DNA of 64,000 nt from Candidatus Wildermuthbacteria bacterium (GTDB lineage Bacteria > Patescibacteriota > Minisyncoccia > Minisyncoccales > UBA10102), in the NCBI GenBank assembly GCA_016181405.1, contig JACOZJ010000002.1:74608-138607 (forward strand), read 5' to 3'. The position numbers and the translations under genes were made by a program. Under the pieces are notes generated by a model. It was not told where the DNA came from, did not search any database, and was given only the letters and a program-made list of their open reading frames with translations. Positions 1 to 13,520 of the stretch are shown piece by piece (position 1 is the stretch's first letter; every line of letters begins with the position of its first letter).

Positions 1-928
1 CGATGCCTTCATCAAGCGAAATCTTGGGTGCCCAACCCAGCTCTTCTTTTGCTCTGGAGCAATCAAGAAACAAACTTGTTTTGATGCTTGGTTTTGACGT
101 GTCGTATGAAATAGTGAGATTTTTGCCCGAATGCTCAATCATCTTTTTCACTAAGTCTGCTACGGAAATCGCCTCGCCCAACCCAACAGCATACAGCTTA
201 AACTTGGATTCCTGTTTGGCGATTGCCGCCTCCACAAAATCTACTAAATCTGCAACGTGCAGGAGATCCCTGGCTTCAGTTCCCTCTCCCCAAACAACAA
301 TTTGACCATTTGGAGGCGCCGTCATCACCTTAGTAAGCGTCGCACCAAATACGTGCGATTTTTCCAAGTCGTATTTGTCATGGGGCCCGTAAATGTTTGA
401 ATGCCTTATAACCGTATATTTGGTATTGCCTATTCTTGAATAAAATTCACACATCTTTTCAATGTACACTTTGGTCCAGCCCACACCGAAGTATTTGGGA
501 AGCAGTTCCTGGTTTGCGTCGAAATCCTGTTCAGAAAGCGCAGTATCTGAAGGCTGATACATTACCGTGCAGCTAAAAAAGATAAAGTGAGCAACATTAT
601 GCTCAAAAGCCGCGCGCAACAGCAAAGAGTTCATGAGGGCATTATCTGTCACGTGATAATAGGGCTTTTCTACAATATCTTTGGCGCCCGAGGTGGTGGC
701 GGCAGCTTGTATAATAATGTCTTTACCCTCCACTACTCTTGCTACATCATCTTTATTGGTTAAGTCGGCTTCTACCATACGGATGTTAGGATTTTCCAAT
801 GGTTCTGCCTGCCAGTAGGTTCCGTATACTTCAAAGTCAGAAAGCGTAGCAAAATGCTCAACTATGTTCCTTCCGATAAACCCCGTAGCTCCGCAAATAA
901 GAACTTTTTTCTTGGTGTTTTGAGTCAT
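1..928 (-). CDS. NAD-dependent epimerase/dehydratase (extended SDR, GDP-fucose-synthase-like); C-terminus cut by window edge
   Basis: Not in the ORF track. Hand translation from ATG at 928..926 stays open to position 1: MTQNTKKKVLICGATGFIGRNIVEHF...NIYGPHDKYD...RAKEELGWAPKISLDEGI. Rossmann GxxGxxG motif is present. The ATGA overlaps the stop of the upstream gene (925-927). Confidence 0.85.
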   Translation of the reverse strand, partial: MTQNTKKKVLICGATGFIGRNIVEHFATLSDFEVYGTYWQAEPLENPNIRMVEADLTNKDDVARVVEGKDIIIQAAATTSGAKDIVEKPYYHVTDNALMNSLLLRAAFEHNVAHFIFFSCTVMYQPSDTALSEQDFDANQELLPKYFGVGWTKVYIEKMCEFYSRIGNTKYTVIRHSNIYGPHDKYDLEKSHVFGATLTKVMTAPPNGQIVVWGEGTEARDLLHVADLVDFVEAAIAKQESKFKLYAVGLGEAISVADLVKKMIEHSGKNLTISYDTSKPSIKTSLFLDCSRAKEELGWAPKISLDEGI

Positions 929-1686
929 AATGTTGCAAACTCCCTTATTATTTCTTCTGAACTTTTTTTGAAGGCAGGGATCAAAGAAGCCACTTTTGCG
1001 TTATCGATGTTCCCCACGCGATACCGAAATTCTCCAAATGTAACTTTTTTGCCAAACATATCTGCAGCTTGCGAAAGTGTAATGTTTTTTGAAGCCGCGA
1101 GATTGCATATTCCCTTCAAATCCTTTTCCATGGCAACTTGAAGAAACTTGAGTACATCTTGATACAGCACGTAATTAAATTCGGAGTCGGGCGTCAGCGT
1201 AACCGTCGGATTTTCATCTTCCTTGATTTTCAGCAAACTGTTTTTCCTTGCGTATGGTCCAAGAAAGGCAGAACATCTCATAATCAAATAGTTTAGGGAA
1301 TATTCCCTAACAATTGATTCTGAAGCGAGTTTGCAAATCGCATATATTCCTTCTACAGCGTTCACATCAATAACGTCATCTTCTGCATGTACTTCACTGT
1401 TTCTCGGATATACATCGACAGAAGAAATAAATATAAATTTCTTGTGCGGGATTGCCGCTAACTCTTTCGCTAAACATATATTGTCTTGAATATAGGAAAA
1501 CAGTGATTCAGACGTAACCTCGCGGGCAGGATTAGAGGCGCAATGAATAAGTACATCTACTCCTTCTTTCCTTATCTTCTCTTTCTCGTCCTCCGTCGTA
1601 TCTCTATCCCAGCCCATTGCGTTAGGAAAATTCTCATGCAAATATTTTCCCAAACCGCTTTTATTTCCAGTCACCAATACCTTCAT
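925..1686 (-). CDS. Rossmann-fold NAD(P)-binding protein, short epimerase/reductase-like
   Basis: 253-aa ORF. N-terminus MKVLVTGNKSGLGKYL carries a TGxxxGxG motif. It is translationally coupled on both sides (overlaps at 925-928 and 1683-1686) within the sugar operon. Confidence 0.75.
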   Translation of the reverse strand: MKVLVTGNKSGLGKYLHENFPNAMGWDRDTTEDEKEKIRKEGVDVLIHCASNPAREVTSESLFSYIQDNICLAKELAAIPHKKFIFISSVDVYPRNSEVHAEDDVIDVNAVEGIYAICKLASESIVREYSLNYLIMRCSAFLGPYARKNSLLKIKEDENPTVTLTPDSEFNYVLYQDVLKFLQVAMEKDLKGICNLAASKNITLSQAADMFGKKVTFGEFRYRVGNIDNAKVASLIPAFKKSSEEIIREFATL

Positions 1687-2663
1687 TTGAATACGTTATA
1701 GCGTTTCTCAACAATATCCTTGTTTTCTTTGTACCATTGCATTACTTCTTTTATGCCCTCTTCAATGAAAATTGCAGGCTGCCAACCTAAAGCCTTCGCC
1801 CTCGAAATATCCATCAATCGTTTTTTGTCGCCCGCGGGCTTTGTTGTATCCCACACCACTTCTGGTTTCTTCTCCATGTTGTTCACAATAACTTCCACGA
1901 TTTCTTTTATGGAGTACCCCACCCCACTGCCGAGGTTAATGGGATGCCCGGGGCACTTCTCTAACGCTACGAGCATACCCTTAGCCACATCTTTTGCATA
2001 GATAAAGTCTCTCACCGGAGAACCGTCTCCCCAAACAACCAAAGGATTTTCTCCATCCATTGCCCTCTTTACCAGAGAAGGAATAACCATGGCGTTTGCA
2101 GGATCAAAATTATCATACGGACCATACACATTTGCAGGGCGCACGATAGCAATCTTGTCCCAGCCATATTCAATCGCGTAGGCCTCTGCCTGCAGCTCTC
2201 CCATACGCTTTGCCCAGCCAGCAAACTTATCGTTTTCGGAAGGAAACGTTTTCCATACATCGTCTTCATAAAATACTTCAGCTGGCCCATAGACTCCAAC
2301 CGTACTGGTAAACAAATACCGCTCCGCACCGCTTCTTCGCGCGGCTTCCATCATATTGGTATTAAACAGAATCGTGGGAACGAAAAAACTCGCGGGTTTT
2401 TCCCTCGTCATCTTGGGGGATCCTTTAATGCCAGCTAAATGGAATACCATATCCATGCCCTCACATGCCTTTAGACAATTATTCATATCGGTTAAATCTA
2501 CGCGCATAAATTCTGCTTGAGGATGGGCGCGAGAAGGATCATCCAATGAAGCAATCCTGACTTTTGCTCCCGCAGCGATAAGCATTTCTACCAACGGCCT
2601 ACCGATAAGCCCAGTTCCCCCCGTAACCAATATAGTTTTGTCTTTATAAAAATCCATATGCAT
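1683..2663 (-). CDS. NAD-dependent NDP-sugar epimerase/dehydratase family protein
   Basis: 326 aa. ILVTGGTGLIGRPLV Rossmann motif. RPANVYGPYDNF and SRAKALGWQP are typical of extended SDR sugar epimerases/reductases. Confidence 0.9.
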   Translation of the reverse strand: MHMDFYKDKTILVTGGTGLIGRPLVEMLIAAGAKVRIASLDDPSRAHPQAEFMRVDLTDMNNCLKACEGMDMVFHLAGIKGSPKMTREKPASFFVPTILFNTNMMEAARRSGAERYLFTSTVGVYGPAEVFYEDDVWKTFPSENDKFAGWAKRMGELQAEAYAIEYGWDKIAIVRPANVYGPYDNFDPANAMVIPSLVKRAMDGENPLVVWGDGSPVRDFIYAKDVAKGMLVALEKCPGHPINLGSGVGYSIKEIVEVIVNNMEKKPEVVWDTTKPAGDKKRLMDISRAKALGWQPAIFIEEGIKEVMQWYKENKDIVEKRYNVFK

Positions 2664-2666
2664 GTA

Positions 2667-3716
2667 TTAGAACGGTCCTTTAAACCTATTTTCCCAACTG
2701 TAAAATTCTTCGCCCGATAAATCAGTTGGTTTTAATTGTAATTTTTTCTCGACGGCGCGAATAATACTCACGGCGTTTGGATAAAACGCGTTTTCCAAAG
2801 GCCTGGTTGTTGCGCAATGAGTGTGCGGAAACGCGATTCTTGTTACTGGGGACTTCAATCGCCCAAAACACTTTTCCGAAACTAAGGCTGCCACTTCCGC
2901 TGAAAATCCACAGAACTCCCAATCGTAATCTGCCACTACGCAATGGCCGGTTTTGTTTACCGAGCGCACCAGAGCAGCTTTGTCTAAAGGATATATTGTT
3001 CTTGGGTCTATTATTTCAACCTCTACGCCTTGCTTTCTAGCCAGTATTTCTGCGGCTTTATATGCCTCCACATTCATCCACGAAGTTGCGACTATAGTGA
3101 TGTCTTTCCCTCTGCGGACAAGACGCGCCTTACCCAGAGGAATTGTATACGGTTCCGCAGGCACCTTACCTTCCATCCAATACAGCCAACGATGTTCCAA
3201 AAACATAGTGGGACTGTCATCACGAATAGCAGAGATCAAAAGCCCCTTAGCGTCGTAAGCGTTAGAAGGCATAACAACCTTAATCCCTGGGATATGGGCA
3301 AACATTGACTGCAACGATTTGGAATGCTGGAACGCCTGCCCCCAGCCTCTGCCAATAACAGCTCGAATCACCAGTGGGGCTTTTAATACACCACCACTTC
3401 CAAACCGCGCTGTCGCTACCATATTTACAAGCTGATTCATTGCCAGCAACAAAAAATCTACCCTGATATGCACGTGTACGGGACGCAGACCGTTTATGGC
3501 TGCTCCCAAACCCACGCCCATCATTGCGTCTTCAGACAAAGGCGTTCCAAAAAAACGTTTGGGGGCAAACTTTTCCAACCCTTTCGTTGAGCCAAATATC
3601 TTTTTATGATCTGTCACATCAAGCCCATACACAAATACCGAAGCATCTCTCTCCATTTCCTGTCTCAGTGCTTCCGCAATGGCTTGTTCGTACGTAAGCG
3701 ATCTAAGCATAGACAT
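2667..3716 (-). CDS. ThDP-dependent dehydrogenase E1 beta-like subunit (transketolase pyrimidine-binding plus C-terminal domains)
   Basis: 349 aa. N-terminus LTYEQAIAEALRQEMERDASVFVYGLDV and FGTPLSEDAMMGVGLGAAINGLRPV match the E1-beta architecture. Overlaps the alpha gene by 14 nt. Confidence 0.9.
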   Translation of the reverse strand: MSMLRSLTYEQAIAEALRQEMERDASVFVYGLDVTDHKKIFGSTKGLEKFAPKRFFGTPLSEDAMMGVGLGAAINGLRPVHVHIRVDFLLLAMNQLVNMVATARFGSGGVLKAPLVIRAVIGRGWGQAFQHSKSLQSMFAHIPGIKVVMPSNAYDAKGLLISAIRDDSPTMFLEHRWLYWMEGKVPAEPYTIPLGKARLVRRGKDITIVATSWMNVEAYKAAEILARKQGVEVEIIDPRTIYPLDKAALVRSVNKTGHCVVADYDWEFCGFSAEVAALVSEKCFGRLKSPVTRIAFPHTHCATTRPLENAFYPNAVSIIRAVEKKLQLKPTDLSGEEFYSWENRFKGPF

Positions 3717-4659
3717 CTTGCATAAGTTCTTCTTTTTTGAGGAAAGGCGCTTTTTGAGCTTCGCGAATACTTTTTTCCAGCTGCTGGTCGATCTTCTTCT
3801 CTACAGCAAGCACGACGCTTTCTTTCATGCCTTCACGGATAAGCCTATCTCGCTGCACTTTTACCGGATCTTTTTCCAGCCAGGGCAAAAGCTCTTTTCT
3901 TGCGCGATAGCCAGCATCAAAATCTTCGTTTACCCCAACGTGCTCCAAGTAGCGATAGTATTTCAAATGCAGAAAGCCCGGCATCCCTGACTTTTTCATC
4001 TTGGCCAACATATTTCTCGTTATCTCGTAAATCTCATACACATCGGTGGTAGAGGCTTCATCGGTATGGCAATAAAATTGCGAAACTACTTTCGTGATTG
4101 GTTTATGCCCCAACCTATCCTTTAATCGGGAGTGTATAGCAAAATCATTATCTTCGCATACAAATAAGATGGGGAGCTTTTTTAAACAAGCGAAATTCAA
4201 ACTCTCCCAAAAAACACCTTCGTTTATGGCGCCATCGCCGAAAAAGGAAACTACGATATTCCCATTTTTCTTGTAGGCGTTTGCCAGCGCCGCCCCTACC
4301 GCGACAGGTATGGTAGTAGAAACCACGGCAGAAGTCATTACTACGCCAGCGTCAGGCAAAGCCAAATGCATGGATCCTCCCTTCCCCTTTGCGGGTCCTG
4401 TTGCCTTGCCATACATTTCGGCAAAAAACATATCGCTCTCCCCGGTTTTTGCCAAATACAAAGCATGAGAACGATACGTTCCAAAAGCTTGAGCTTGCTT
4501 TCCCACAGCCTCAAGAACTCCCACCACAATTGCTTCCTCGCCCATAGACATGTGCATGGGTGTCTTCATCTCATCTTCCGAATAGTGCTCACGGATTTTC
4601 TCTTCGGCTTTCCTGATGAGATACAACTTTTTGTAAAACTCCAGATGCAATTTAAGCAT
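3703..4659 (-). CDS. ThDP-dependent dehydrogenase E1 alpha-like subunit
   Basis: 318 aa. ThDP-binding motif GDGAINEGVFWESLNFACLKKLPILFVCEDNDFA (GDG...N). An E1-alpha-like N-terminal helix is present. Confidence 0.9.
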   Translation of the reverse strand: MLKLHLEFYKKLYLIRKAEEKIREHYSEDEMKTPMHMSMGEEAIVVGVLEAVGKQAQAFGTYRSHALYLAKTGESDMFFAEMYGKATGPAKGKGGSMHLALPDAGVVMTSAVVSTTIPVAVGAALANAYKKNGNIVVSFFGDGAINEGVFWESLNFACLKKLPILFVCEDNDFAIHSRLKDRLGHKPITKVVSQFYCHTDEASTTDVYEIYEITRNMLAKMKKSGMPGFLHLKYYRYLEHVGVNEDFDAGYRARKELLPWLEKDPVKVQRDRLIREGMKESVVLAVEKKIDQQLEKSIREAQKAPFLKKEELMQDVYA

Positions 4660-5662
4660 TTTTTTTGTAATACTCTCTCCAATAATTCAAAAGGTCCTGC
4701 AGTGTCTGATCAAAGGGAATTTCTGGCTTCCACCCGGTCGCCTCTCTGAATTTATCGGCCGAGGGAATCTGCAAGGTTACATCGGAAGGCCGCAAACGGG
4801 CTGGATCAACTTTTACTTCGATATTCTTCACGGTAGAAAGATTCAGTAATTTTTGCAGCATCTCCCCAACCGTCATAGTCTCTACCCCACCGATGTTGTA
4901 CACTTCTCCGGGAGCACATTTGGTTACCAACAACCAATATGCCCTTACTGCGTCCTTAATATCCAAAAAAGTGCGCACACTGTCTAAATTGCCTACTTTT
5001 ATTACTGGCTCTTGCAACCCTGTTTCAATAGCTGCAATTTGTTTGGCAAAACTGGATTCCGCAAAAACCTCTCCTCTCCTGGGGCCTGTGTGAGTAAACA
5101 TTCTTGTCCTTATGGTTTTTATCTTCCAAGAAAGCCAATACTGAAAAGCCAGCATATCTTCGGCAACCTTGCTCACGGCATAGGGGGAGGCCGGGCGGAA
5201 GGAATTAGTTTCCTTAATGGGCACCTCATCCTTCTTCACCTGGCCATAACATTCAGAAGAACTTGCAATATGAATAATAGGATCGTATCCTGAAGCCCCC
5301 TTGAGTTTCCGAATAGCCTCCAACAAATTTGCTGTTCCTATGACATTCGTATCAAGAGTAGTAATGGGGGCTAAAAAGCTAAAATCCACATACGACTGCG
5401 CGGCCATATGGAAAATGATTTCTGGCTTGTGTTCTGCCAAAATGGTTTCTAAAGAAGGCAAGTCCACTAAGTCGCCATAACACAATGTTATCTTCCCCAA
5501 AATCTGCTTGATATTGTCTTTGGGCTCCCACCAACGTAAAAGCCCCAGCACTTGAGCATTGGGGAACTTCTCTAGAATATATTCAGCCAAATGGCTTCCC
5601 ACGAAACCGGTTATACCGGTAATCAGCACTCTTTGCGGTTCTTGCATAGTATCGTCTACCAC
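4652..5662 (-). CDS. NDP-hexose 4,6-dehydratase family protein (GDP-mannose 4,6-dehydratase/Rmd-like)
   Basis: 336 aa. Motifs VLITGITGFVGSHLAEY, SSSECYG, SPYAVSK (YxxxK) and FTHTGPRRGEVF resemble the Gmd signatures. Confidence 0.85.
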   Translation of the reverse strand: MVDDTMQEPQRVLITGITGFVGSHLAEYILEKFPNAQVLGLLRWWEPKDNIKQILGKITLCYGDLVDLPSLETILAEHKPEIIFHMAAQSYVDFSFLAPITTLDTNVIGTANLLEAIRKLKGASGYDPIIHIASSSECYGQVKKDEVPIKETNSFRPASPYAVSKVAEDMLAFQYWLSWKIKTIRTRMFTHTGPRRGEVFAESSFAKQIAAIETGLQEPVIKVGNLDSVRTFLDIKDAVRAYWLLVTKCAPGEVYNIGGVETMTVGEMLQKLLNLSTVKNIEVKVDPARLRPSDVTLQIPSADKFREATGWKPEIPFDQTLQDLLNYWREYYKKNA

Positions 5663-5901
5663 TTTTCGATAGCCTTTTTAGTTTTATCTTTTAACTCTTT
5701 GTATTTCCAATACACCTTCTCCTCCAGCTTGGGGGAAACCAGCATCAAAATATCGTCGCCCCAAATACGCCAAGTCCCACCTACCCGGTGGGCCTTAATA
5801 ATGCCGTTTTTGATCATTCTTTTCATGGTAGAAGAGCTCACTTTCAAAAAATCTTGGGCTTCTTTGGTTGTGTAAATCTCTTTTGGATGAATCTCTGGCA
5901 T
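5656..5901 (-). CDS. helix-turn-helix DNA-binding protein, excisionase/MerR-like (HTH_17) family
   Basis: 81 aa. YTTKEAQDFLKVSSSTMKRMIKNGIIKAHRVGGTWRI is the classic excisionase-family HTH. Its 3' end overlaps the dehydratase start by 7 nt. Confidence 0.8.
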   Translation of the reverse strand: MPEIHPKEIYTTKEAQDFLKVSSSTMKRMIKNGIIKAHRVGGTWRIWGDDILMLVSPKLEEKVYWKYKELKDKTKKAIEKW

Positions 5902-5938
5902 ACCTTGTAAGAACTTCGCCAGTTTCGTTATTATAGCT

Positions 5939-5970
5939 GCCCCGTAGTGGGCAAAGCTTCACTACGGGGC
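5939..5970 (-). promoter_or_regulatory. perfect 11-bp stem-loop in the predicted 5' UTR of the HTH/sugar operon
   Basis: GCCCCGTAGTG (5939-5949) and CACTACGGGGC (5960-5970) are exact reverse complements around a 10-nt loop. There is no 3' U-tract on either strand, so it is not a canonical terminator. Confidence 0.6.
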
Positions 5971-6012
5971 ATACACTAAAAAAGAAAAAATGAGTAAGTC
6001 AGCAATACACTC

Positions 6013-6041
6013 ATAATAAACCACCAATCAAATAGTGTCAA
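6013..6041 (-). promoter_or_regulatory. sigma70-type promoter for the HTH/sugar operon
   Basis: On the minus strand: TTGACA (6041..6036), 17-nt spacer, TATTAT (6018..6013). It lies about 110 nt upstream of the ATG at 5901. Confidence 0.65.
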
Positions 6042-6060
6042 GAGGTATCAAATAGTGTCA
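6027..6060. repeat. two exact 14-bp direct repeats (ATCAAATAGTGTCA), 20-bp period; candidate operator
   Basis: Copies at 6027-6040 and 6047-6060 are identical. The proximal copy covers the -35 box and spacer of the promoter. Confidence 0.8.
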
Positions 6061-6081
6061 TTTAAAGCAAAAATAAGGCAA

Positions 6082-6113
6082 CCAAAAAGCCCCTGGGGAA
6101 AACCCGAGGGGCT
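6082..6113 (-). terminator. Rho-independent terminator downstream of the cupin gene
   Basis: Minus strand reads AGCCCCTCGGGTTTTCCCCAGGGGCT followed by TTTTTGG. The stem is 7 bp plus 3 bp. Confidence 0.8.
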
Positions 6114-6138
6114 TGAACTCTTGAAGGTAGGGGGTTAG

Positions 6139-6492
6139 TTACGGTTGGTGTGCGACCTTCCCTTCTGCGGCAGGAATCTTGAACACCATCATTCGCACGG
6201 GACCTGTCGTGCCCCACTGATGCCACACGCCGGCCGGGATATGGATTGCATCTCCTTCTTTGAGGAGATGCGTCTCTCCACCCGCGATTGCCGACGAGAT
6301 CAAAGTGGGGTCTGCTGGATTGCTGCCTTCCCTCACCTGACCATTGGCCTTGCCGCCGATGACGAACTCCACCTCGCCCTCGAGCACATGGAAGAAATCG
6401 TCATTCGCCAGATGAAACTCTGCGGACCTTCCCGTGACCGCTGCAGGGGAATCAATGCGCTGCTCATGTAAAATGCGTGGTACTCTTGGCAT
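6139..6492 (-). CDS. cupin domain protein
   Basis: 117 aa. FHVLEGEVEF...GDAIHIPAGVWHQW matches the two-motif cupin pattern. Confidence 0.8.
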   Translation of the reverse strand: MPRVPRILHEQRIDSPAAVTGRSAEFHLANDDFFHVLEGEVEFVIGGKANGQVREGSNPADPTLISSAIAGGETHLLKEGDAIHIPAGVWHQWGTTGPVRMMVFKIPAAEGKVAHQP

Positions 6493-6515
6493 AGTTGCTC
6501 CTTTTTGTGGTACTT

Positions 6516-7124
6516 CTATTGAGGAGGAAGCGCTGTAGGATCAATGCCTCGCGCCTCAAGAACAAAGTTGGCAAAGTCCCGGATTGCCCCCTTCCCTCCA
6601 GCGCGCTCGGCAACAAAATGGCAGAGATCCCTCACCACTTTTTCTGCTTGAGCCGGAGCGGCTCGAAGCGCCACGCGGCGCAGCAGAGGGACATCAACCA
6701 AATCATCCCCCATCATTGCGCAACGTTCAAACGAACCCCCGAACTCCTGAAGGAACAATTCGGCGGCAACCACCTTTTTGTCCCCTCCCATTCCGGTATA
6801 GAGAGAAACCTTTGGCCATCCGCCGTCCCCAATGGTTTTTTCAGAGGACGGCAGAGTATTCCACTTCTCCACCACGCCGGCAACTGCTCTGGCATGATCA
6901 TCTTTCTCATTCGTAACGAAAGCGACCCGAATACCGATAGCCCGTAAAAGCGAAACTCCTTGGCCGTCGGTGTAGCTCCGGGTCTTGATACGAACGGGGT
7001 TCCCGGCAGCATCGTAAAATCCTTCCGTCACTTCAGTCGGGAACAACACCCCATCGACATCAAACACCACAGCGTCAATCTCACACGCCAAACGTCTTAC
7101 TTCTTCTATTGAGTGCATTTCCAT
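6516..7124 (-). CDS. HAD-IIIA phosphatase, KdsC (3-deoxy-sugar-phosphate phosphatase) family
   Basis: 202 aa. DVDGVL nucleophile motif. The C-terminal GDDLVDVPLLRRVALRAAPAQAE...GGKGAIRDFANFVLEARG parallels the E. coli KdsC C-terminus. AGGAGG SD lies 7 nt upstream. Confidence 0.85.
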   Translation of the reverse strand: MEMHSIEEVRRLACEIDAVVFDVDGVLFPTEVTEGFYDAAGNPVRIKTRSYTDGQGVSLLRAIGIRVAFVTNEKDDHARAVAGVVEKWNTLPSSEKTIGDGGWPKVSLYTGMGGDKKVVAAELFLQEFGGSFERCAMMGDDLVDVPLLRRVALRAAPAQAEKVVRDLCHFVAERAGGKGAIRDFANFVLEARGIDPTALPPQ

Positions 7125-7159
7125 AACGAACCTCCTTTCCCCCCGTTTTATCCGAATGC

Positions 7160-7189
7160 AGTATAGCTTGAATGAATTGTTAAAGTCAA
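7160..7189 (-). promoter_or_regulatory. sigma70-type promoter for the HAD/cupin unit
   Basis: On the minus strand: TTGACT (7189..7184), 18-nt spacer, TATACT (7165..7160). Confidence 0.6.
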
Positions 7190-7190
7190 T

Positions 7191-7222
7191 GAAAAGAAAG
7201 TCCCTTCATTGTTTGAAGGGAC
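7191..7222 (-). terminator. Rho-independent terminator after the P-loop kinase gene
   Basis: Minus strand reads GTCCCTTCA-AACAA-TGAAGGGAC (9-bp perfect stem) followed by TTTCTTTTC. Confidence 0.8.
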
Positions 7223-7266
7223 ATCAACCGAATCTACAGGCGCGCGGCTACGAGTAGCAGAGTTGT

Positions 7267-7995
7267 TTACGGTTGTGGCCTAAAATCTCCAACCATCTCC
7301 ACTGCTTCTTCGGCCCGCCTTCTCAACTCTTCTTCGCTGATCGGCATCTCACCCCTCAGAAAAGCGAGCACTTCTGCGCGCTGGCGAGCCAAAGCTTTTG
7401 GCGATTCGTCCGCTGTATTAACATACAAAGGAGTGTAGCCAAAGGGCGGAATCTCGACTTGCCGCGCGCTCCGGAGAAAACCCTCGAGATCAAAGACGCT
7501 CGCATTGGTTGGGTTCCCAACCTCCTGGAGGCGGTACTGGATCCTCCGCCTTACCGCGGCCAGATCACAGTAAAAGTAAAAACATCTGAAATCTACCGCA
7601 ATCGGCATATCGGGTACCAGCACTCCGTCGCGCTCCGCCTCTTCTCTCTCGATGGCTTGCAGATACCGCTTTGCATCGTGAATCATCTCCACGAAGGGTC
7701 GCTGGTGGCTGTCCCGAGTCAACATCATCATCTCGAGGAAAAGGACTTGCGGTCTCTCCACTATGAGTTTTGCCTTCACCACAAACCGAGTCGCCTCATT
7801 CTTAAAGACGTGCTCGGTTCTGGTGATATGGGCATCGCTCCTGCCCGGCCACAGAAACTCACGGGTATCATCCATAGACACAAGGACAGCATCCTTGTAC
7901 TCGGGCAAGCTCATTACCCAGTTTCGAAAGAACGACTTGCCGCTGTACACCAACCCGGAAAAAACCACTACCAGAATCCGCTTTCGGTTCTCCAT
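7267..7995 (-). CDS. P-loop kinase-like protein (AAA_33/zeta-toxin-like fold), function unknown
   Basis: 242 aa. Walker A motif GLVYSGKS, followed by VSMDDTR. AGGAGAAG SD is upstream. Confidence 0.7.
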   Translation of the reverse strand: MENRKRILVVVFSGLVYSGKSFFRNWVMSLPEYKDAVLVSMDDTREFLWPGRSDAHITRTEHVFKNEATRFVVKAKLIVERPQVLFLEMMMLTRDSHQRPFVEMIHDAKRYLQAIEREEAERDGVLVPDMPIAVDFRCFYFYCDLAAVRRRIQYRLQEVGNPTNASVFDLEGFLRSARQVEIPPFGYTPLYVNTADESPKALARQRAEVLAFLRGEMPISEEELRRRAEEAVEMVGDFRPQP

Positions 7996-8037
7996 CGCAC
8001 TCTTCTCCTACAATATTCAAGCTTAGGGTGTGCAAAA

Positions 8038-8066
8038 ATTTTACATCTAATTCACTTACTTGTCAA
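8038..8066 (-). promoter_or_regulatory. sigma70-type promoter for the P-loop kinase gene
   Basis: On the minus strand: TTGACA (8066..8061), 17-nt spacer, TAAAAT (8043..8038). Confidence 0.7.
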
Positions 8067-8083
8067 CTCTCTACGAGAAACAG

Positions 8084-8145
8084 AAAACCGCCCCTTTGCC
8101 TCGCCGAATCCGCCGGATGGCGGAGAAGGCGGGTGGGGCGGTTTT
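8084..8145 (-). terminator. long imperfect hairpin terminator after the Ig-like surface protein gene
   Basis: AAAACCGCCCC (8084-8094) pairs with GGGGCGGTTTT (8135-8145). An inner CCGCC/GGCGG hairpin is present. Both flanks are T-rich, so it may act bidirectionally. Confidence 0.7.
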
Positions 8146-8179
8146 CTCTTCTTTTTATCCGACGAGATTTTTAAACGCG

Positions 8180-9190
8180 TTACATCTGTCCCGTGAGAAG
8201 CTGGAGCAACTGCTGCAAGAGAGCAACAACCTGCTGCTGGAGCGAAACAACCTGAAGCTGCAATGACTGAATTGTTGTTCCACCAACTGACGTTGTTGGA
8301 GTCTCACTCGATGATGGCGTTGATTCAACAACGGGCGCAACTACTGTCACAGCAACTCCTGCGGAAGGGGTTTCTCTGTTACTTTTGGTGTCGGTAGCCC
8401 GAACTTTAATCGTATGTTCGCCTGCGGTCGGATTTGCCCAGACGTATTTCCATGCATAAGATCCAGTAGAGCCATAGTCTCCCTCACGCACTGCCAAAGC
8501 CCACGTTGTGCCGCCGTCCACACTTACCTCTACTTTCTGAACAGAGGAACCACCAGAGTCATTGGATACCCCTTTGATAACATATTCCGATCCCGCTGAA
8601 ATAGTTGTTGCTGCGCTCGGCGTTGTGAAAAGCGAGCTTGGCGAGGTCTTATCGACAGATACTTCAAGGTTAGCTGGCGGAGAAGCAAAAATAGTAAACG
8701 CGGTGCTGCTCCCGCCGTCTATGTTCCCCCCTGCCCTGGTTTTCGTTTGCACATCCACAACAACAGAAGTATTTCCCGCATACGGATTTTGAATATCGGA
8801 AACAGTAATCTCTATTGTGTCTGAAGCTGGAGTCACAGCTCCATCTGCCAACCACGCAACAATCCCCTGGCCAGAAACGGTCGAACTCGCAAATATGGAG
8901 CTTCCAGTAGAGGAAGGCGCCGTTACCGAACTCGTTGCAGTAGATCCATAGGCTACTGAAGAAGCACGCGAAACGTCAAATCCTGCAGGGAATGTAATCC
9001 GTATCTGGCTTTGTATTTCCGTAGAAGAACCGACCTGAAAGCTTATGCGGTAGTCGCTAAGACGTCCTCCATAGCTGCTGTCAACTGCAGTAACTGTTAC
9101 AAAAGATAGAGGTATCGCCTGCGCGACAGAAACCATCGCAACGCTCAAAACCACCACCAGACCAATTATAATATAAATCTCCTTCTTCAT
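8180..9190 (-). CDS. secreted/membrane-anchored protein with Ig-like domain and C-terminal Q/L-rich coiled coil
   Basis: 336 aa. N-terminal hydrophobic signal IIIGLVVVLSVAMVSVAQA. VQKVEVSVDGGTTWALA...HTIKVRATD resembles a bacterial Ig-like fold. The C-terminus is SLQLQVVSLQQQVVALLQQLLQLL. Confidence 0.8.
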   Translation of the reverse strand: MKKEIYIIIGLVVVLSVAMVSVAQAIPLSFVTVTAVDSSYGGRLSDYRISFQVGSSTEIQSQIRITFPAGFDVSRASSVAYGSTATSSVTAPSSTGSSIFASSTVSGQGIVAWLADGAVTPASDTIEITVSDIQNPYAGNTSVVVDVQTKTRAGGNIDGGSSTAFTIFASPPANLEVSVDKTSPSSLFTTPSAATTISAGSEYVIKGVSNDSGGSSVQKVEVSVDGGTTWALAVREGDYGSTGSYAWKYVWANPTAGEHTIKVRATDTKSNRETPSAGVAVTVVAPVVESTPSSSETPTTSVGGTTIQSLQLQVVSLQQQVVALLQQLLQLLTGQM

Positions 9191-9238
9191 TAGTATATAA
9201 TTATTTGTATTTTAGCTGAACATTTTTGACCTTTATTT

Positions 9239-9266
9239 ATTATAACCTCTTACCAAACATATGCAA
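9239..9266 (-). promoter_or_regulatory. candidate sigma70 promoter for 8180..9190
   Basis: On the minus strand: TTGCAT (9266..9261), 16-nt spacer, TATAAT (9244..9239). Confidence 0.5.
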
Positions 9267-9286
9267 CAAGAAAGTTTTCCACACCC

Positions 9287-11023
9287 CTAAATAGCGACTA
9301 AAGACCCGATCATCTGATTCATCTTATTCCGTGTCGTTTGGCCAACATATCCTGTCCCGCTATTTAAACTAAGAGGCGCTAAAATTTCAGGGGCGTATAT
9401 TTCCTGGAAGCGGATAACAGCTTGTTTCGTTAAGGAAAGAAAATTACCCGTTACAAGACCTTCCGGATACACCTCCGGACCCTGTGACGCAAGAAATTCC
9501 TGCAAACATCGCACCTCTTCACCTTGTACTCCAAAAGAAAGATTGCGGTTGAAGCTCGTACACGAGACAGCTTGCGGAGGATTCCGTTGCCCTTGGAGCG
9601 CGGCGATCCGAGAACGCAGTTGGCGAATTTGCGCTTGCAATTCTGCCACACGGGCCAAAAGCTGATTTCTTAGCTGCACCTCTTCTTGCGCTTTTGCTTC
9701 CGCTTCTCTCTGCACCTTCACCTCCCATGAAAACAAAAACGTATTTTCTCTTCCGCTAAACCCAGAAGTTTTGCCTTTGAGAAAAGGAATAATCGTTAAG
9801 GAACTATATGTTTTGTCAAACTGAGAAAAAGTAATTATGCCTTTTTGTTCTTCATCCAAAGAGAAAAATCCAACAGAACATTCGTAGTGCAAATCGCAAA
9901 GCAGATACGGAACTTCAAAATCTACCACACTGGTTCCCTCAAATTCCAAAGTAAAGTTCTGCCCGCCGCCAACGAAACGATGCCAGTTTGCGCTCCAAGC
10001 AGGAGCTGTATGATTTGTAGAAACAACCGTTTCTCCTCCCGGAATATAGTAGGAAACGGGGGCAACGCGAAGTGACGCCAAATTCGGATTTGCATAACAA
10101 TACTTACTTCCCACCTCACAGTTGTTAACCAATACCGTTATTGCCCAATCTTGGAATATCTGGGCAAAATCTTCCTTAAAACCGTTTCTTTGCAGAGCTT
10201 CATCCAAAGAAGCAATGCCTACTTGAGAGGATTTTAAAGAATCAATCAATACATCTTTTCCGTAATGGTCAACAAGATATTGGACAAACATATTAATTAC
10301 CCCATAATCTTCTTTTGTGTTGAGCCATTCAGTGAGAGAATTAGTTGGATTTTCCAAAAAATTCCGCACTCTTCTCTGAAGATTACTTCCTTCGTACACA
10401 TCGTCATACCCTAACAAGGTTGACGCGTACTCTGCTCTGGCTTCATTTAACCATGTTTCTTCTGCTACTCTTCTCAAGAGATCCTTTTGATTAATCGTAA
10501 TCAAATGAGTGAATTCGTGCGCCAAAAAACTCTTCGCCTCTATTTCCCCGATATACTCGCTATTTAAGTACACCATTTCCCGTGCGTTTGACGTGGGGCT
10601 TACTGCCTTTTCGTACACATCGTTCGAACGGAAGTAACCCCCCGCCTCGCCCGCCATTTGATGAATCAAAATCGTAAGCTTTGCATCTTTGTCAACCCCG
10701 GGATTTGGTTCCGATCCAAATGTTGAGGTTAACACAGGGTAGATGTGGTTTTGGAATTCCTGCCCAAGCTCAAAAAGAGCTATCCTTAAGTCATTTTGCT
10801 CTCGGGGAGAACGACCGCCCCACCAGTTTTTTTCAATATAGAAATAGATGCGATTATCGGCTCGCACAAGTTGCGCTTCTATTTCCTTTCTGCCAGAAAT
10901 ATCGTAAGAACTCTCAACAAAAAAAGTACGAGTTTCCGTCTGTGCGTTTGCATCCAGCGCAAAAACGCTCCCAAGGGAAACTAAGGCACCGAAAAATGTA
11001 AAAAGAAAAATGATTTTTGACAT
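9287..11023 (-). CDS. secreted zinc metallopeptidase (HEXXH, gluzincin-like) with C-terminal coiled coil and peptidoglycan-binding domain
   Basis: 578 aa with a signal peptide. AHEFTHL (HEXXH) with downstream NEARAEY. Coiled coil VAELQAQIRQLRSRIAALQ. The PG_binding_1-like tail is RCLQEFLASQG...AVIRFQEIYAPEILAPLSLNSGTGYVG. Confidence 0.85.
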   Translation of the reverse strand: MSKIIFLFTFFGALVSLGSVFALDANAQTETRTFFVESSYDISGRKEIEAQLVRADNRIYFYIEKNWWGGRSPREQNDLRIALFELGQEFQNHIYPVLTSTFGSEPNPGVDKDAKLTILIHQMAGEAGGYFRSNDVYEKAVSPTSNAREMVYLNSEYIGEIEAKSFLAHEFTHLITINQKDLLRRVAEETWLNEARAEYASTLLGYDDVYEGSNLQRRVRNFLENPTNSLTEWLNTKEDYGVINMFVQYLVDHYGKDVLIDSLKSSQVGIASLDEALQRNGFKEDFAQIFQDWAITVLVNNCEVGSKYCYANPNLASLRVAPVSYYIPGGETVVSTNHTAPAWSANWHRFVGGGQNFTLEFEGTSVVDFEVPYLLCDLHYECSVGFFSLDEEQKGIITFSQFDKTYSSLTIIPFLKGKTSGFSGRENTFLFSWEVKVQREAEAKAQEEVQLRNQLLARVAELQAQIRQLRSRIAALQGQRNPPQAVSCTSFNRNLSFGVQGEEVRCLQEFLASQGPEVYPEGLVTGNFLSLTKQAVIRFQEIYAPEILAPLSLNSGTGYVGQTTRNKMNQMIGSLVAI

Positions 11024-11068
11024 TTTCTTCTTTATGCTACCAAACTCTCAGTTCCTTCTCAAGAAAGA

Positions 11069-13462: not shown

Positions 13463-13520
13463 AAGTGTGGGGGTGATCGGTTCTTGTTTTACGCTCTACA
13501 AGAAAACGTGCAACCAATCT

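What the first reader, a model, noticed from the sequence alone, without database searches (positions are those of the whole stretch)
1..5901. NDP-deoxysugar operon carrying a stand-alone ThDP E1 alpha/beta pair: candidate C-branched sugar pathway
Seven translationally coupled minus-strand genes make up this operon: an HTH gene, a Gmd-like 4,6-dehydratase, E1 alpha, E1 beta and three SDR epimerase/reductases. The junction overlaps are 7, 8, 14, 4 and 4 nt. The E1 pair has an intact GDG...N ThDP motif, but no E2 lipoyl-acyltransferase or E3 gene is nearby. A 2-oxoacid dehydrogenase complex is therefore unlikely here. PDH-E1-like alpha/beta pairs embedded in deoxysugar clusters are known, from actinomycete antibiotic sugar pathways, to donate a two-carbon hydroxyethyl or acetyl unit to a keto-sugar. 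In a reduced-genome organism this would imply a branched-chain surface sugar. The function is inference; only the gene content and coupling are seen directly.
Basis: partly seen in the sequence, partly recalled or inferred. Interest (0 to 1): 0.6.

Follow-up and report, generated by a model that had tools for sequence, protein, structure and literature searches.

The report
Thiamine enzyme pair in heptose-sugar operon
A tiny-genome (candidate phyla radiation) bacterium carries a stand-alone thiamine-dependent E1 alpha/beta enzyme pair inside a surface-sugar operon built on GDP-heptose; this type of pair adds a two-carbon side branch to keto-sugars in antibiotic pathways, and the same cassette occurs in dozens of mostly uncultured phyla.

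Summary
Seven co-directional minus-strand genes (HTH, 4,6-dehydratase, E1 alpha, E1 beta, three SDRs) sit at 1-5901, with overlaps of 7, 8, 14, 4 and 4 nt plus one 3-nt gap. The ThDP motif is intact. No E2 or E3 gene lies in the 64 kb window.

Three refinements:
- The operon runs past the window edge into a heptose kinase, a His-type DegT-like 3-dehydrase, an RmlC-like epimerase, a nucleotidyltransferase/GmhB fusion and a flippase.
- The "Gmd-like" enzyme is 50% identical to the solved GDP-D-glycero-D-manno-heptose 4,6-dehydratase, so the substrate is probably GDP-heptose.
- The E1 beta has a 24-residue C-terminal tail ending F-x-G-P-F. The tail is shared with Pau12 (paulomycin sugar branching) and a kibdelomycin-type beta subunit. 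It is absent from six E2-coupled E1 betas.

E1 alpha relatives from 80 genomes across many phyla lie next to the heptose-type dehydratase in about 55 cases and never next to E2/E3.

Best reading (about 0.6): a lipoyl-independent carboligase adds a C2 unit from pyruvate to a GDP-4-keto-(3,)6-deoxyheptose, giving a branched nine-carbon surface sugar. This is a new variant of a known enzyme kind. The biochemistry is untested.

The parts
6013..6041 (-). Sigma-70-like promoter match (TTGACA-17-TATTAT, 11 of 12) about 110 nt upstream of the HTH start codon. This is the likely start of the transcription unit.
   Evidence: It is a consensus match only. The total number of such matches in the region is not above the shuffle expectation.
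6027..6060 (.). Two perfect 14-nt direct repeats (ATCAAATAGTGTCA on the + strand, spacing 20) overlapping the -35 region. Possible operator; function untested.
5656..5901 (-). HTH_17 / excisionase-family DNA-binding protein (81 aa). First gene of the unit; overlaps the dehydratase gene by 7 nt.
   Evidence: Pfam PF12728, 46.8 bits. TIGR01764, 38.6 bits. Homologues precede related clusters in 7 other, mostly Patescibacteria, loci.
4652..5662 (-). NDP-sugar 4,6-dehydratase of the GDP-D-glycero-alpha-D-manno-heptose type (DdahA/DmhA-like), 336 aa.
   Evidence: Best solved relative is 7US5, a GDP-D-glycero-D-manno-heptose 4,6-dehydratase: 307.9 bits, E 7e-91, 50% identity over 322 positions. The SSSE-YG and YxxxK motifs are conserved. 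True GDP-mannose dehydratases score at most 144 bits.
3703..4659 (-). ThDP-dependent E1 alpha subunit (318 aa). GDG-X27-ND motif at residues 141-172 (window 4144-4239); YRYLEH histidine retained.
   Evidence: PF00676, 149 bits. TIGR03182, 256 bits, below its 394-bit cutoff. Best PDB match is only 112 bits, human PDH E1 alpha. Motif coordinates.
2667..3716 (-). E1 beta subunit (349 aa): Pyr domain plus transketolase-C domain, with the catalytic Glu and QHS histidine retained.
   Evidence: PF02779 and PF02780. NF006667, 289.5 bits, below its 321-bit cutoff. PDB E1 betas align only to residues 6-325.
2670..2741 (-). C-terminal tail of E1 beta (residues 326-349, ...DLSGEEFYSWENRFKGPF-COOH). A clade signature shared with Pau12 and absent from E2-coupled E1 betas.
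1683..2663 (-). Extended SDR resembling GDP-L-fucose synthase (326 aa). Candidate epimerase/reductase acting on the GDP-keto-sugar or on the branch ketone.
   Evidence: NF047922, 152.7 bits (below cutoff). Best PDB matches are GDP-fucose synthases, 132 bits. Homologues are present in 49 of 80 related loci.
925..1686 (-). Short SDR (253 aa, TGxxxGxG and YxxxK present). Candidate branch ketoreductase; specificity unknown.
   Evidence: PF01370, 52 bits. A classical adh_short SDR occupies the same position in the closest CPR/DPANN loci L016 and L017.
1..928 (-). Third extended SDR (323 aa in full; the last 14 codons lie beyond the window edge), GDP-fucose-synthase/GalE-like.
   Evidence: Full length is seen in L001 13732-14703.

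Best explanation
The E1 alpha/beta pair is a lipoyl-independent ThDP carboligase of the 'alpha-keto acid dehydrogenase 2' type. Known examples are AviB1/B2, Pau11/12 and KbDH-alpha/beta. It works inside a GDP-heptose pathway for a surface glycan.

Proposed route:
1. A heptose phosphate is activated to GDP-D-glycero-alpha-D-manno-heptose by an HddA-like kinase and a fused nucleotidyltransferase/GmhB phosphatase. Both genes lie just beyond the window edge.
2. The window's dehydratase makes GDP-6-deoxy-4-keto-heptose.
3. A His-type DegT-like enzyme removes the 3-OH, and an RmlC-like cupin may epimerise.
4. The E1 pair decarboxylates pyruvate and adds the resulting hydroxyethylidene-ThDP to the C4 ketone, giving a 4-C-acetyl tertiary alcohol.
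5. One of the three SDRs reduces the branch ketone to 1-hydroxyethyl.

The product would be a heptose homologue of yersiniose, a branched nine-carbon sugar. It would then be flipped by the Wzx-like protein and attached at the cell surface.

Shown: gene content, order and coupling, family assignments, conserved synteny, the shared tail and clade, and the absence of E2/E3. Inferred: the donor, the acceptor position, the order of steps and the product.
For: The pair is not part of an oxo-acid dehydrogenase complex.
- No E2, E3 or lipoyl gene occurs in the window, in the 6 kb beyond it, or within 10 kb either side of the pair in 80 related genomes. The motif scan was validated on two real E2/E3 operons.
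- Both subunits fall below NCBI's PDH equivalog cutoffs.

The pair is tied to sugar chemistry.
- 74 of 80 loci carry recognisable NDP-sugar genes.
- 57 loci have a homologue of the window's dehydratase, almost always directly upstream of E1 alpha.
- 38 have an HddA-like kinase, 32 an RmlC-like cupin and 50 an extended SDR.

The sugar is a GDP-heptose.
- The dehydratase is 50% identical to 7US5, GDP-D-glycero-D-manno-heptose 4,6-dehydratase.
- The kinase's four best PDB matches are all heptose phosphate kinases.
- The nucleotidyltransferase is fused to a GmhB-like phosphatase: 150 bits against a cutoff of 178.
- The cupin matches GDP-4-keto-heptose epimerases as well as it matches RmlC.
- The SDRs are GDP-fucose-synthase-like.

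The pathway logic resembles yersiniose.
- The DegT-like protein has His in place of the PLP lysine (FSTYVAH, against VSFYPAH in the E1 dehydrase 3BCX). Its best NCBIfam match is RfbH.
- 17 of 19 DegT-like genes in related loci are also His-type. So are those of Azospirillum lipoferum 4B and Solidesulfovibrio magneticus RS-1.

The pair is linked to proven or proposed branching enzymes.
- The E1 beta tail F-x-G-P-[FY]-COOH is present in Pau12 (P0328). Its neighbours match the published pau6-pau18 order (PMC4425429).
- It is present in a Kibdelosporangium beta subunit in a kibdelomycin-like cluster, in 116 of 120 actinomycete homologues and in 70 of 77 betas of the heptose loci.
- It is absent from 6 of 6 E2/lipoyl-coupled betas.
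- Tail-bearing sequences group together on trees built without the tail columns.

Chemistry precedent: KbDH-alpha/beta couples pyruvate to ketones in vitro, and this group appears specialised for C2 branches (PMC12247030). Related loci place a classical SDR (28 loci) or an aldo-keto reductase (15 + 5 loci) after E1 beta. This mirrors the branch ketoreductases YerF and Pau7 (PMC4753412).
Against: No biochemical data exist for this pair or for any member of the heptose-linked clade.

Overall identity of the window E1 beta to Pau12 (44%) is no higher than to E2-coupled betas (45%). The exact tail-clade split has only 79 of 200 bootstrap support on a neighbour-joining tree.

The tail marks E2-independence rather than sugar specificity. 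A tail-bearing pair on Streptomyces griseofuscus pSGRIFU1 sits among PKS/NRPS genes. A sugar-context pair in S. magneticus lacks the tail.

No GmhA (SIS) gene was seen within reach in this organism. No E3-like reductase for an Fe-S type 3-dehydrase was found.

In paulomycin and avilamycin the branch is proposed to be installed after glycosyl transfer, not on the NDP-sugar (PMC4425429).

Donor identity (pyruvate against a longer 2-oxo acid) and branch position (C3 against C4) cannot be read from sequence. ThDP supply in a CPR cell is unverified.
Confidence: 0.6

Rival explanations
1. The pair is a ThDP enzyme of the same GDP-heptose pathway but performs different carbon-carbon chemistry. It might use a longer hydroxylated 2-oxo acid as donor (as ErwE and MygE do). 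It might branch at C3, extend the chain at an aldehyde, or cleave or rearrange a keto-sugar.
For: Related loci often add further ThDP enzymes: split transketolase (18-19 loci), an ALS/YerE-like enzyme (8 loci) and a second E1 pair (5 loci). They also add B12-radical-SAM enzymes (20 loci). This suggests varied carbon-skeleton editing. A KdsC-like phosphatase lies upstream (window 6516-7124) and a PseF-like cytidylyltransferase lies downstream, so ulosonic (2-oxo) acids are made nearby. YerE-like enzymes are known to accept C4-C8 hydroxy-2-oxo acids (PMC9306805). Known E1-type enzymes branch at C3 or C4 (PMC12247030).
Against: This operon has only one ThDP enzyme and no aldolase to make a longer donor. 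The characterised E1-type enzyme (KbDH) is limited to pyruvate, and the group is described as specialised for C2 branches (PMC12247030). The 4,6-dehydratase and 3-dehydrase provide exactly the 4-keto acceptor used by YerE.
Confidence: 0.25
2. The pair is a conventional pyruvate, acetoin or branched-chain 2-oxo acid dehydrogenase E1. Its E2 and E3 partners are encoded elsewhere, and it lies among sugar genes by accident.
For: Both subunits give their best family-model hits to PDH E1 and their best PDB hits to PDH/BCKDH E1. The catalytic histidines used for lipoamide acylation are retained. The rest of the genome could not be searched.
Against: Scores are below the equivalog cutoffs. Sugar-gene synteny is conserved, with no E2/E3, in 80 genomes from many phyla. 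The beta tail is absent from 6 of 6 E2-coupled betas. On trees the pair groups with E2-less betas. The genes are tightly packed between a dehydratase and SDRs. From general knowledge, not tested here: CPR genomes usually lack 2-oxo acid dehydrogenase complexes.
Confidence: 0.04
3. The pair is an E2-independent ThDP enzyme that makes a small non-sugar molecule, such as an acyloin, an aldehyde or an acyl unit for O/N-acylation of the glycan. It does not act on the NDP-sugar itself.
For: Tail-bearing pairs also occur in non-sugar contexts, for example the PKS/NRPS cluster on S. griseofuscus pSGRIFU1. The tail therefore does not specify a sugar acceptor.
Against: The pair lies immediately next to the heptose 4,6-dehydratase in about 55 genomes. 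It co-occurs with His-type 3-dehydrases that make a reactive 4-ketone. No acyltransferase or carrier-protein gene is present in this operon.
Confidence: 0.08

Closest known systems
E1-type (alpha-KADH2) sugar C-branching pairs of actinomycete antibiotic pathways: AviB1/AviB2 (avilamycin), Pau11/Pau12 (paulomycin), KbDH-alpha/beta (kibdelomycin), and the aldgamycin and kosinostatin homologues
   Same: Two adjacent genes encode the E1 alpha and E1 beta subunits. The GDG...N ThDP motif is intact. There is no E2/E3 partner. The pair is embedded among NDP-sugar dehydratase and reductase genes. The beta subunit is about 345-350 aa and ends in F-x-G-P-[FY] (Pau12 ...VGFQGPF; window ...NRFKGPF). The sequences group together on the E1 beta tree. 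A downstream ketoreductase step is plausible.
   Different: Identity to Pau12 is only 44% for the beta subunit. The nucleotide-sugar chemistry is GDP-heptose rather than TDP-hexose. The context is a surface-glycan operon (Wzx flippase, Wzy_C-like protein nearby) in a CPR bacterium, not an antibiotic cluster. The 2025 review assigns this enzyme group mainly to specialised metabolites (PMC12247030). The acceptor may be the free NDP-sugar rather than an already attached sugar.
Yersiniose pathway (DdhA/B, E1/E3 3-dehydrase, YerE, YerF) and its ErwE/MMAR_2332/MygE relatives
   Same: The order of chemistry is the same: 4,6-dehydration, PMP/PLP-dependent 3-deoxygenation by a His-type DegT-family enzyme, ThDP-dependent acyl addition to the C4 ketone, then NAD(P)H reduction. 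The destination, a cell-surface glycan, is also the same.
   Different: YerE is a single-chain ALS/decarboxylase-fold flavoprotein, not an E1 alpha/beta heteromer. Its sugar is CDP-hexose, not GDP-heptose. YerE-like genes occur in only 8 of the 80 related loci, and none is present in this operon.
GDP-6-deoxy-heptose pathways of Campylobacter jejuni, Yersinia pseudotuberculosis and Burkholderia pseudomallei (GmhA, HddA/WcbL, GmhB, HddC, DdahA/DmhA/WcbK, epimerases, C4 reductases)
   Same: Both have an HddA-like kinase, a GmhB-like phosphatase, a nucleotidyltransferase, a heptose-type 4,6-dehydratase (50% identical to 7US5), an RmlC-like epimerase and GDP-sugar SDR reductases.
   Different: Those pathways contain no ThDP enzyme and no 3-dehydrase. 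Here an E1 pair is inserted directly after the dehydratase. No GmhA gene was seen in the stretch available.
E1 components of pyruvate, acetoin and branched-chain 2-oxo acid dehydrogenase complexes
   Same: The fold and domain order are the same. So are the ThDP-binding residues, the catalytic Glu and the His residues. These are the best profile and PDB matches.
   Different: Scores are below the family cutoffs. There are no E2/E3/lipoyl neighbours. A 24-residue C-terminal tail is present that all six E2-coupled controls lack. The tree position is separate.

Membership tests
E1-type (alpha-KADH2) sugar C-branching carboligases (AviB1/B2, Pau11/12, KbDH-alpha/beta) | Heteromeric E1 encoded by adjacent alpha (PF00676) and beta (PF02779 + PF02780) genes, with an intact ThDP motif | tested here: met
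   the genes overlap by 14 nt; GDG-X27-ND lies at alpha residues 141-172.
E1-type (alpha-KADH2) sugar C-branching carboligases (AviB1/B2, Pau11/12, KbDH-alpha/beta) | No cognate E2 acyltransferase, E3 or lipoyl carrier; the pair is embedded among nucleotide-sugar modification genes | tested here: met
   Only the window, 6 kb beyond it and the related loci could be searched, not the whole genome.
E1-type (alpha-KADH2) sugar C-branching carboligases (AviB1/B2, Pau11/12, KbDH-alpha/beta) | Sequence relationship to a genetically or biochemically validated member, closer than to E2-coupled E1s | tested here: inconclusive
   The window beta shares the F-x-G-P-[FY]-COOH tail with Pau12 and groups with it on neighbour-joining trees. 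However, identity to Pau12 (44%) equals identity to E2-coupled betas (45%), and exact-split bootstrap support is 79/200. The tail is a criterion I derived here, not an established one.
E1-type (alpha-KADH2) sugar C-branching carboligases (AviB1/B2, Pau11/12, KbDH-alpha/beta) | Catalyses pyruvate decarboxylation and C2 transfer to a keto-sugar or ketone, forming a tertiary alcohol | not testable with these tools
   Needs enzyme assays. The only precedent comes from the literature (PMC12247030).
YerE-like ThDP lyases (yersiniose, erwiniose, caryophyllose) | Single polypeptide with TPP_enzyme_N/M/C domains (ALS/decarboxylase fold) | tested here: not met
   the window proteins have the E1_dh and transketolase-type domains. 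They work like YerE at most by analogy.
Pyruvate/acetoin/branched-chain 2-oxo acid dehydrogenase E1 | Scores above the curated equivalog cutoffs for PDH E1 alpha and beta | tested here: not met
   alpha scores 256.4 against 393.85 (TIGR03182); beta scores 289.5 against 321 (NF006667).
Pyruvate/acetoin/branched-chain 2-oxo acid dehydrogenase E1 | Operon or regulon partnership with E2 (lipoyl acyltransferase) and E3 | tested here: not met
   No E2/E3 lies nearby in the window or in 80 related loci. All six E2-coupled controls have E2 or a lipoyl protein directly downstream. Genome-wide absence was not tested.
GDP-heptose 4,6-dehydratase (DdahA/DmhA/WcbK type), for the 'Gmd-like' gene | Closer to characterised heptose dehydratase than to GDP-mannose dehydratase; catalytic S/T-E and YxxxK present | tested here: met
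   7US5 scores 308 bits at 50% identity, against at most 144 bits for GMDs. The SSSECYG and YAVSK motifs are present. Substrate specificity itself was not tested.
Sugar 3-dehydrases of the DegT family (RfbH/E1, ColD), for the DegT-like gene just outside the window | Histidine replaces the PLP-binding lysine | tested here: met
   the alignment shows FSTYVAH against E1 dehydrase VSFYPAH and aminotransferase FSFNGNK. The best NCBIfam match is RfbH, 271 bits (below its 423 cutoff).

The most novel reading that the evidence does not exclude
E1-type ThDP carboligases would not be confined to actinomycete antibiotic pathways. A phylum-spanning clade is wired to GDP-heptose genes and would build previously undescribed C-branched nine-carbon (and larger) sugars for cell surfaces. 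Carriers include CPR bacteria, DPANN archaea, Omnitrophota, Planctomycetota, Dehalococcoidia, Desulfobacterota and Azospirillum. The C-terminal F-x-G-P-[FY] tail of E1 beta would be the structural signature that separates lipoyl-independent carboligase E1s from dehydrogenase-complex E1s.
Probability: 0.45. Interest if true: 0.7.

Novelty: new variant of a known kind. Interest (0 to 1): 0.55.

Why it matters
Almost nothing is known about the surface glycans of CPR and DPANN cells, which live attached to host cells. A predicted branched nonose gives a concrete molecule to look for.

The cassette also occurs on plasmids of culturable bacteria: Azospirillum lipoferum 4B, A. ramasamyi and A. thermophilum. 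Relatives occur in A. oryzae and Solidesulfovibrio magneticus RS-1. The prediction can therefore be tested by knockout and sugar analysis.

The 2025 review of ThDP enzymes that form tertiary alcohols assigns E1-type enzymes mainly to antibiotic biosynthesis and reports no experimental structure for them. A large GDP-sugar-linked clade and a simple sequence marker of E2-independence would widen that toolbox. They would also improve annotation of the many genes now labelled 'pyruvate dehydrogenase E1' or 'acetoin:DCPIP oxidoreductase' in glycan loci.

Tried and rejected
- AlphaFold2 on a natural alpha-beta fusion of the same clade (P0124, alignment A1) gave an excellent core (pLDDT 94.8, pTM 0.95). 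The tail was left unplaced (pLDDT 45-57), so no mechanism for the tail could be derived.
- A lipoyl-motif regex was too strict: it missed the positive controls. Only the E2 catalytic and E3 redox motifs are used as evidence.
- The key bioinformatic paper on E1-type branching clusters (Krug et al., Angew. Chem. 2024, e202403535) is not in the library. I cannot say whether it already lists heptose-linked clusters.
- AviB1/B2 and KbDH sequences could not be retrieved. Pau12 and a Kibdelosporangium banguiense homologue were found instead.
- The gene at 39436-41460 is not on record in the contig index. It was annotated by Pfam instead.
- A literature search for a heptose-based hydroxyethyl-branched sugar, or for branched sugars in Azospirillum, found nothing relevant.
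- The bootstrap criterion 'some split unites window and Pau12 and excludes the controls' (200/200) is too permissive. I rely on the exact-split value (79/200).
- I considered phosphonopyruvate or sulfopyruvate decarboxylase roles and rejected them, because those enzymes have the decarboxylase fold, not the E1 fold. This fold distinction comes from general knowledge.

Full report
**1. What is in the sequence**

Window 1-5901 holds seven co-directional minus-strand genes:

| Coordinates | Product |
|---|---|
| 5656-5901 | HTH_17/excisionase-family protein |
| 4652-5662 | Extended-SDR 4,6-dehydratase |
| 3703-4659 | E1 alpha |
| 2667-3716 | E1 beta |
| 1683-2663 | Extended SDR |
| 925-1686 | Short SDR |
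| 1-928 | Third SDR, cut by the window edge |

- The junctions are overlaps of 7, 8 and 14 nt, then a 3-nt gap, then overlaps of 4 and 4 nt.
- Pfam and NCBIfam confirm every family assignment.
- E1 alpha carries GDG-X27-ND at residues 141-172.
- A strong sigma-70-like match (TTGACA-17-TATTAT) lies at 6041-6013. A hairpin after the preceding cupin gene suggests the unit starts upstream of the HTH gene.

**2. The operon does not end at the window edge**

Window 1-14000 is base-for-base identical to a 34-kb Logan contig, L001. That contig continues downstream of the third SDR with these genes:

- a GHMP kinase
- a DegT-family protein
- an RmlC-like cupin
- a nucleotidyltransferase fused to a HAD phosphatase
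- a Wzx-type flippase
- a PseF-like cytidylyltransferase
- a methyltransferase

The closest named relative of E1 alpha (91% identity) is from Candidatus Wildermuthbacteria, a CPR (Patescibacteria) lineage. The rest of the window encodes typical housekeeping genes of such an organism and has no E2 or E3.

**3. The sugar is most likely a GDP-heptose, not GDP-mannose**

- The "Gmd-like" protein's best solved relative is GDP-D-glycero-D-manno-heptose 4,6-dehydratase, 7US5. It scores 308 bits with 50% identity and conserved catalytic motifs, against at most 144 bits for true GMDs.
- The kinase's four best PDB matches are all heptose phosphate kinases. Its best NCBIfam model is HddA.
- The HAD half of the fusion protein is GmhB-like: 150 bits against a cutoff of 178.
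- The cupin matches GDP-4-keto-heptose epimerases as well as RmlC.
- The two long SDRs resemble GDP-fucose synthase.
- No GmhA gene was seen in the available stretch.

**4. A 3-dehydrase, not an aminotransferase**

- The DegT-family protein has histidine where aminotransferases have the PLP lysine (FSTYVAH). This aligns with the His of the CDP-sugar 3-dehydrase E1 (3BCX).
- Its best NCBIfam model is RfbH.
- It also has a CHCQVC...C cysteine cluster at the position of the Fe-S ligands of E1. That reading is inference.
- The same Lys-to-His change is found in 17 of 19 DegT-like genes linked to this E1 family. It is also found in the Azospirillum lipoferum and Solidesulfovibrio magneticus loci.
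- Dehydratase plus 3-dehydrase would yield a 3,6-dideoxy-4-keto sugar. That is the acceptor type used by YerE in yersiniose biosynthesis (PMC9306805, PMC4753412).

**5. The cassette is widespread and always sugar-linked**

A scan of one genome per species returned 80 loci with E1 alpha relatives of 44-88% identity. Carriers include:

- Patescibacteria and Nanoarchaeota
- Omnitrophota and Planctomycetota
- Dehalococcoidia and Desulfobacterota
- Gammaproteobacteria and Alphaproteobacteria
- Bacteroidota, Acidobacteriota, Verrucomicrobiota and Elusimicrobia, among others

My ORF and BLAST synteny analysis gave these neighbour counts:

| Neighbour | Loci (of 80) |
|---|---|
| Window-type dehydratase, nearly always directly upstream of E1 alpha | 57 |
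| Extended SDRs | 50 |
| HddA-like kinase | 38 |
| RmlC-like cupin | 32 |
| Weakly methyltransferase-like ~315-aa protein | 30 |
| Classical SDR directly after E1 beta | 28 |
| Aldo-keto reductases | 15 + 5 |
| Split transketolase | 18-19 |
| B12-radical-SAM enzymes | 20 |
| SIS (GmhA-like) | 10 |
| YerE/ALS-like ThDP enzyme | 8 |
| Second tandem E1 pair | 5 |

- 74 of 80 loci show at least one nucleotide-sugar gene. The other six are mostly short contigs or contig ends.
- None of the 1.37 Mb contains an E2 catalytic or E3 redox motif. The scan does detect both in real E2/E3 operons.

**6. Relation to known E1 enzymes**

- Both subunits fall below the curated PDH equivalog cutoffs.
- Solved E1 betas align only to residues 6-325.
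- The remaining 24 residues form a conserved tail...DLS-E-FY--E--F[KR]GPF-COOH. The final F, G, P and F are each 97-98% conserved.

The motif F-x-G-P-[FY] at the very C-terminus was found as follows:

| Set examined | Tail |
|---|---|
| E1 beta ORFs of the heptose loci (the rest truncated or near-variants) | 70 of 77 |
| Paralogous second pairs (39-42% identity) | present |
| 50%-cluster representatives, including natural alpha-beta fusions | 47 of 150 |
| A. lipoferum 4B and A. oryzae | present |
| Pau12, whose gene neighbourhood reproduces the published pau6-pau18 order (PMC4425429) | present |
| Kibdelosporangium banguiense beta subunit, flanked by PKS, glycosyltransferase, hexose 2,3-dehydratase and carbamoyltransferase genes (kibdelomycin-like) | present |
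| Actinomycete homologues | 116 of 120 |
| Controls with E2 or a lipoyl protein directly downstream (Acinetobacter, Priestia, Thermus, Neorhizobium, Skermanella, Rhodococcus) | 0 of 6 |

On neighbour-joining trees built from core columns only, tail-bearing sequences cluster:

- The tail character needs 10 parsimony steps for 108 tail-positive against 98 tail-negative sequences.
- The window lies in an 83-member clade that is 99% tail-positive.
- In the smaller bootstrapped set, the smallest split containing both the window and Pau12 holds every tail-positive sequence, plus four tail-negative ones.
- The controls lie outside.

Caveats:

- Support for the exact split is modest (79/200).
- Identity to Pau12 (44%) is no higher than to E2-coupled betas (45%).
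- A tail-bearing pair also occurs in a PKS/NRPS cluster.
- One sugar-context pair, in S. magneticus, lacks the tail.
- The tail therefore marks E2-independence, not sugar specificity. Its mechanism is unknown, because AlphaFold2 leaves it disordered in a single chain.

**7. Mechanism proposed**

From the literature:

- E1 alpha/beta pairs of the "alpha-KADH2" group install C2 (acetyl) branches at C3 or C4 of keto-sugars in aldgamycin, kosinostatin, kibdelomycin, paulomycin, avilamycin and trioxacarcin.
- KbDH-alpha/beta has been shown in vitro to couple pyruvate to ketones, including pyranone sugar mimics (PMC12247030).
- A pau11 knockout abolishes paulomycin production (PMC4425429).
- The branch ketone is then reduced by Pau7, an aldo-keto reductase (PMC4753412).

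By analogy, and from the gene order here, I propose this route:

1. GDP-heptose is dehydrated to GDP-6-deoxy-4-keto-heptose.
2. The 3-OH is removed, with possible epimerisation.
3. The E1 pair adds a hydroxyethylidene unit from pyruvate at C4.
4. An SDR reduces the acetyl branch.

The product would be a heptose homologue of yersiniose. The flippase, an upstream Wzy_C/TPR protein and Ser/Thr-rich secreted proteins suggest a surface destination.

Confidence by step:

| Claim | Confidence |
|---|---|
| Not a dehydrogenase complex | about 0.9 |
| Part of a GDP-heptose pathway | about 0.85 |
| C2 branch at C4 from pyruvate | about 0.55-0.6 |

**8. Comparison and novelty**

- The enzyme kind is known. 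The metabolic setting appears new: GDP-heptose chemistry, a surface-glycan operon, CPR/DPANN and many other uncultured phyla, with culturable carriers on Azospirillum plasmids.
- This is measured against the 2025 review, which assigns YerE-like enzymes to cell-surface sugars and E1-type and transketolase enzymes to specialised metabolites (PMC12247030).
- I could not read the 2024 bioinformatic survey behind that statement, so prior listing of such clusters cannot be excluded.
- I rate the finding a new variant of a known kind, of moderate interest. The prediction is clear and testable, but the evidence for function is purely comparative.

Noticed in passing
window 2670-2741 (minus strand); also P0328, P0327, L089, L099: The E1 beta C-terminus ends in a conserved F-x-G-P-[FY]-COOH tail. 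It is present in E2-independent E1 betas (the heptose loci, Pau12, a kibdelomycin-type beta, natural alpha-beta fusions). It is absent from six E2-coupled betas. Its function is unknown, and it is unplaced in an AlphaFold2 single-chain model.
   Followed up: partly
L001 15679-16851 (just beyond window position 1); L005-L084, L089, L094: DegT-family genes linked to this E1 family carry His in place of the PLP lysine in 17 of 19 loci, and also in two cultured carriers. They are therefore 3-dehydrase-like, not aminotransferases. This organism's copy also has a CHCQVC...C cysteine cluster resembling the Fe-S site of the E1 dehydrase, yet no E3-like reductase gene is nearby.
   Followed up: partly
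window 6027-6040 and 6047-6060; 5938-5971: Two perfect 14-nt direct repeats (spacing 20) overlap the -35 of the putative operon promoter. A perfect 12-bp hairpin lies in the 5' leader of the HTH gene. These may be an operator and a leader structure.
   Followed up: no
window 6139-7995 (minus strand): Upstream of the operon lie a small cupin (6139-6492), a KdsC/KDN-9-P-phosphatase-like HAD protein (6516-7124) and an unknown P-loop-like 242-aa protein (7267-7995). This stretch has higher G+C (0.53 against about 0.44). Together with the PseF-like cytidylyltransferase downstream in L001, this hints at a second, ulosonic-acid sugar pathway in the same region.
   Followed up: partly
window 8180-13462 (minus strand): This stretch holds three genes. 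The first encodes a secreted Ser/Thr-rich 336-aa protein with a glutamine-rich C-terminal coiled coil. The second encodes a 578-aa secreted protein. The third encodes a 797-aa Wzy_C (O-antigen-ligase-like) plus TPR membrane protein. Together they could be the acceptor proteins and the transferase for the glycan.
   Followed up: no
L049, L068, L074, L075, L079; L020, L025, L028 and others: Some related loci carry two tandem E1 alpha/beta pairs (about 40% identical to each other). Others carry a split transketolase, a YerE/ALS-like ThDP enzyme, aldo-keto reductases or B12-binding radical-SAM enzymes beside the heptose genes. This points to a varied carbon-skeleton-editing toolbox that may build larger branched or extended sugars.
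   Followed up: partly
L099 (Azospirillum oryzae plasmid, NZ_CP054615.1 206696-219658): A tail-bearing E1 pair sits with a SIS protein, a PfkB-family sugar kinase, SDRs, two Lys-type DegT aminotransferases and a radical-SAM protein. This is a second, different heptose-like context for an E2-less E1 pair in a cultured bacterium.
   Followed up: no
L090 (Streptomyces griseofuscus pSGRIFU1, 137096-139142): A tail-bearing E1 alpha/beta pair, 73% identical to Pau12 in the beta subunit, lies among condensation-domain, ACP, ketosynthase and gamma-butyrolactone regulator genes, with no sugar genes nearby. E2-independent E1 pairs of this clade therefore also serve non-sugar natural-product chemistry.
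   Followed up: no
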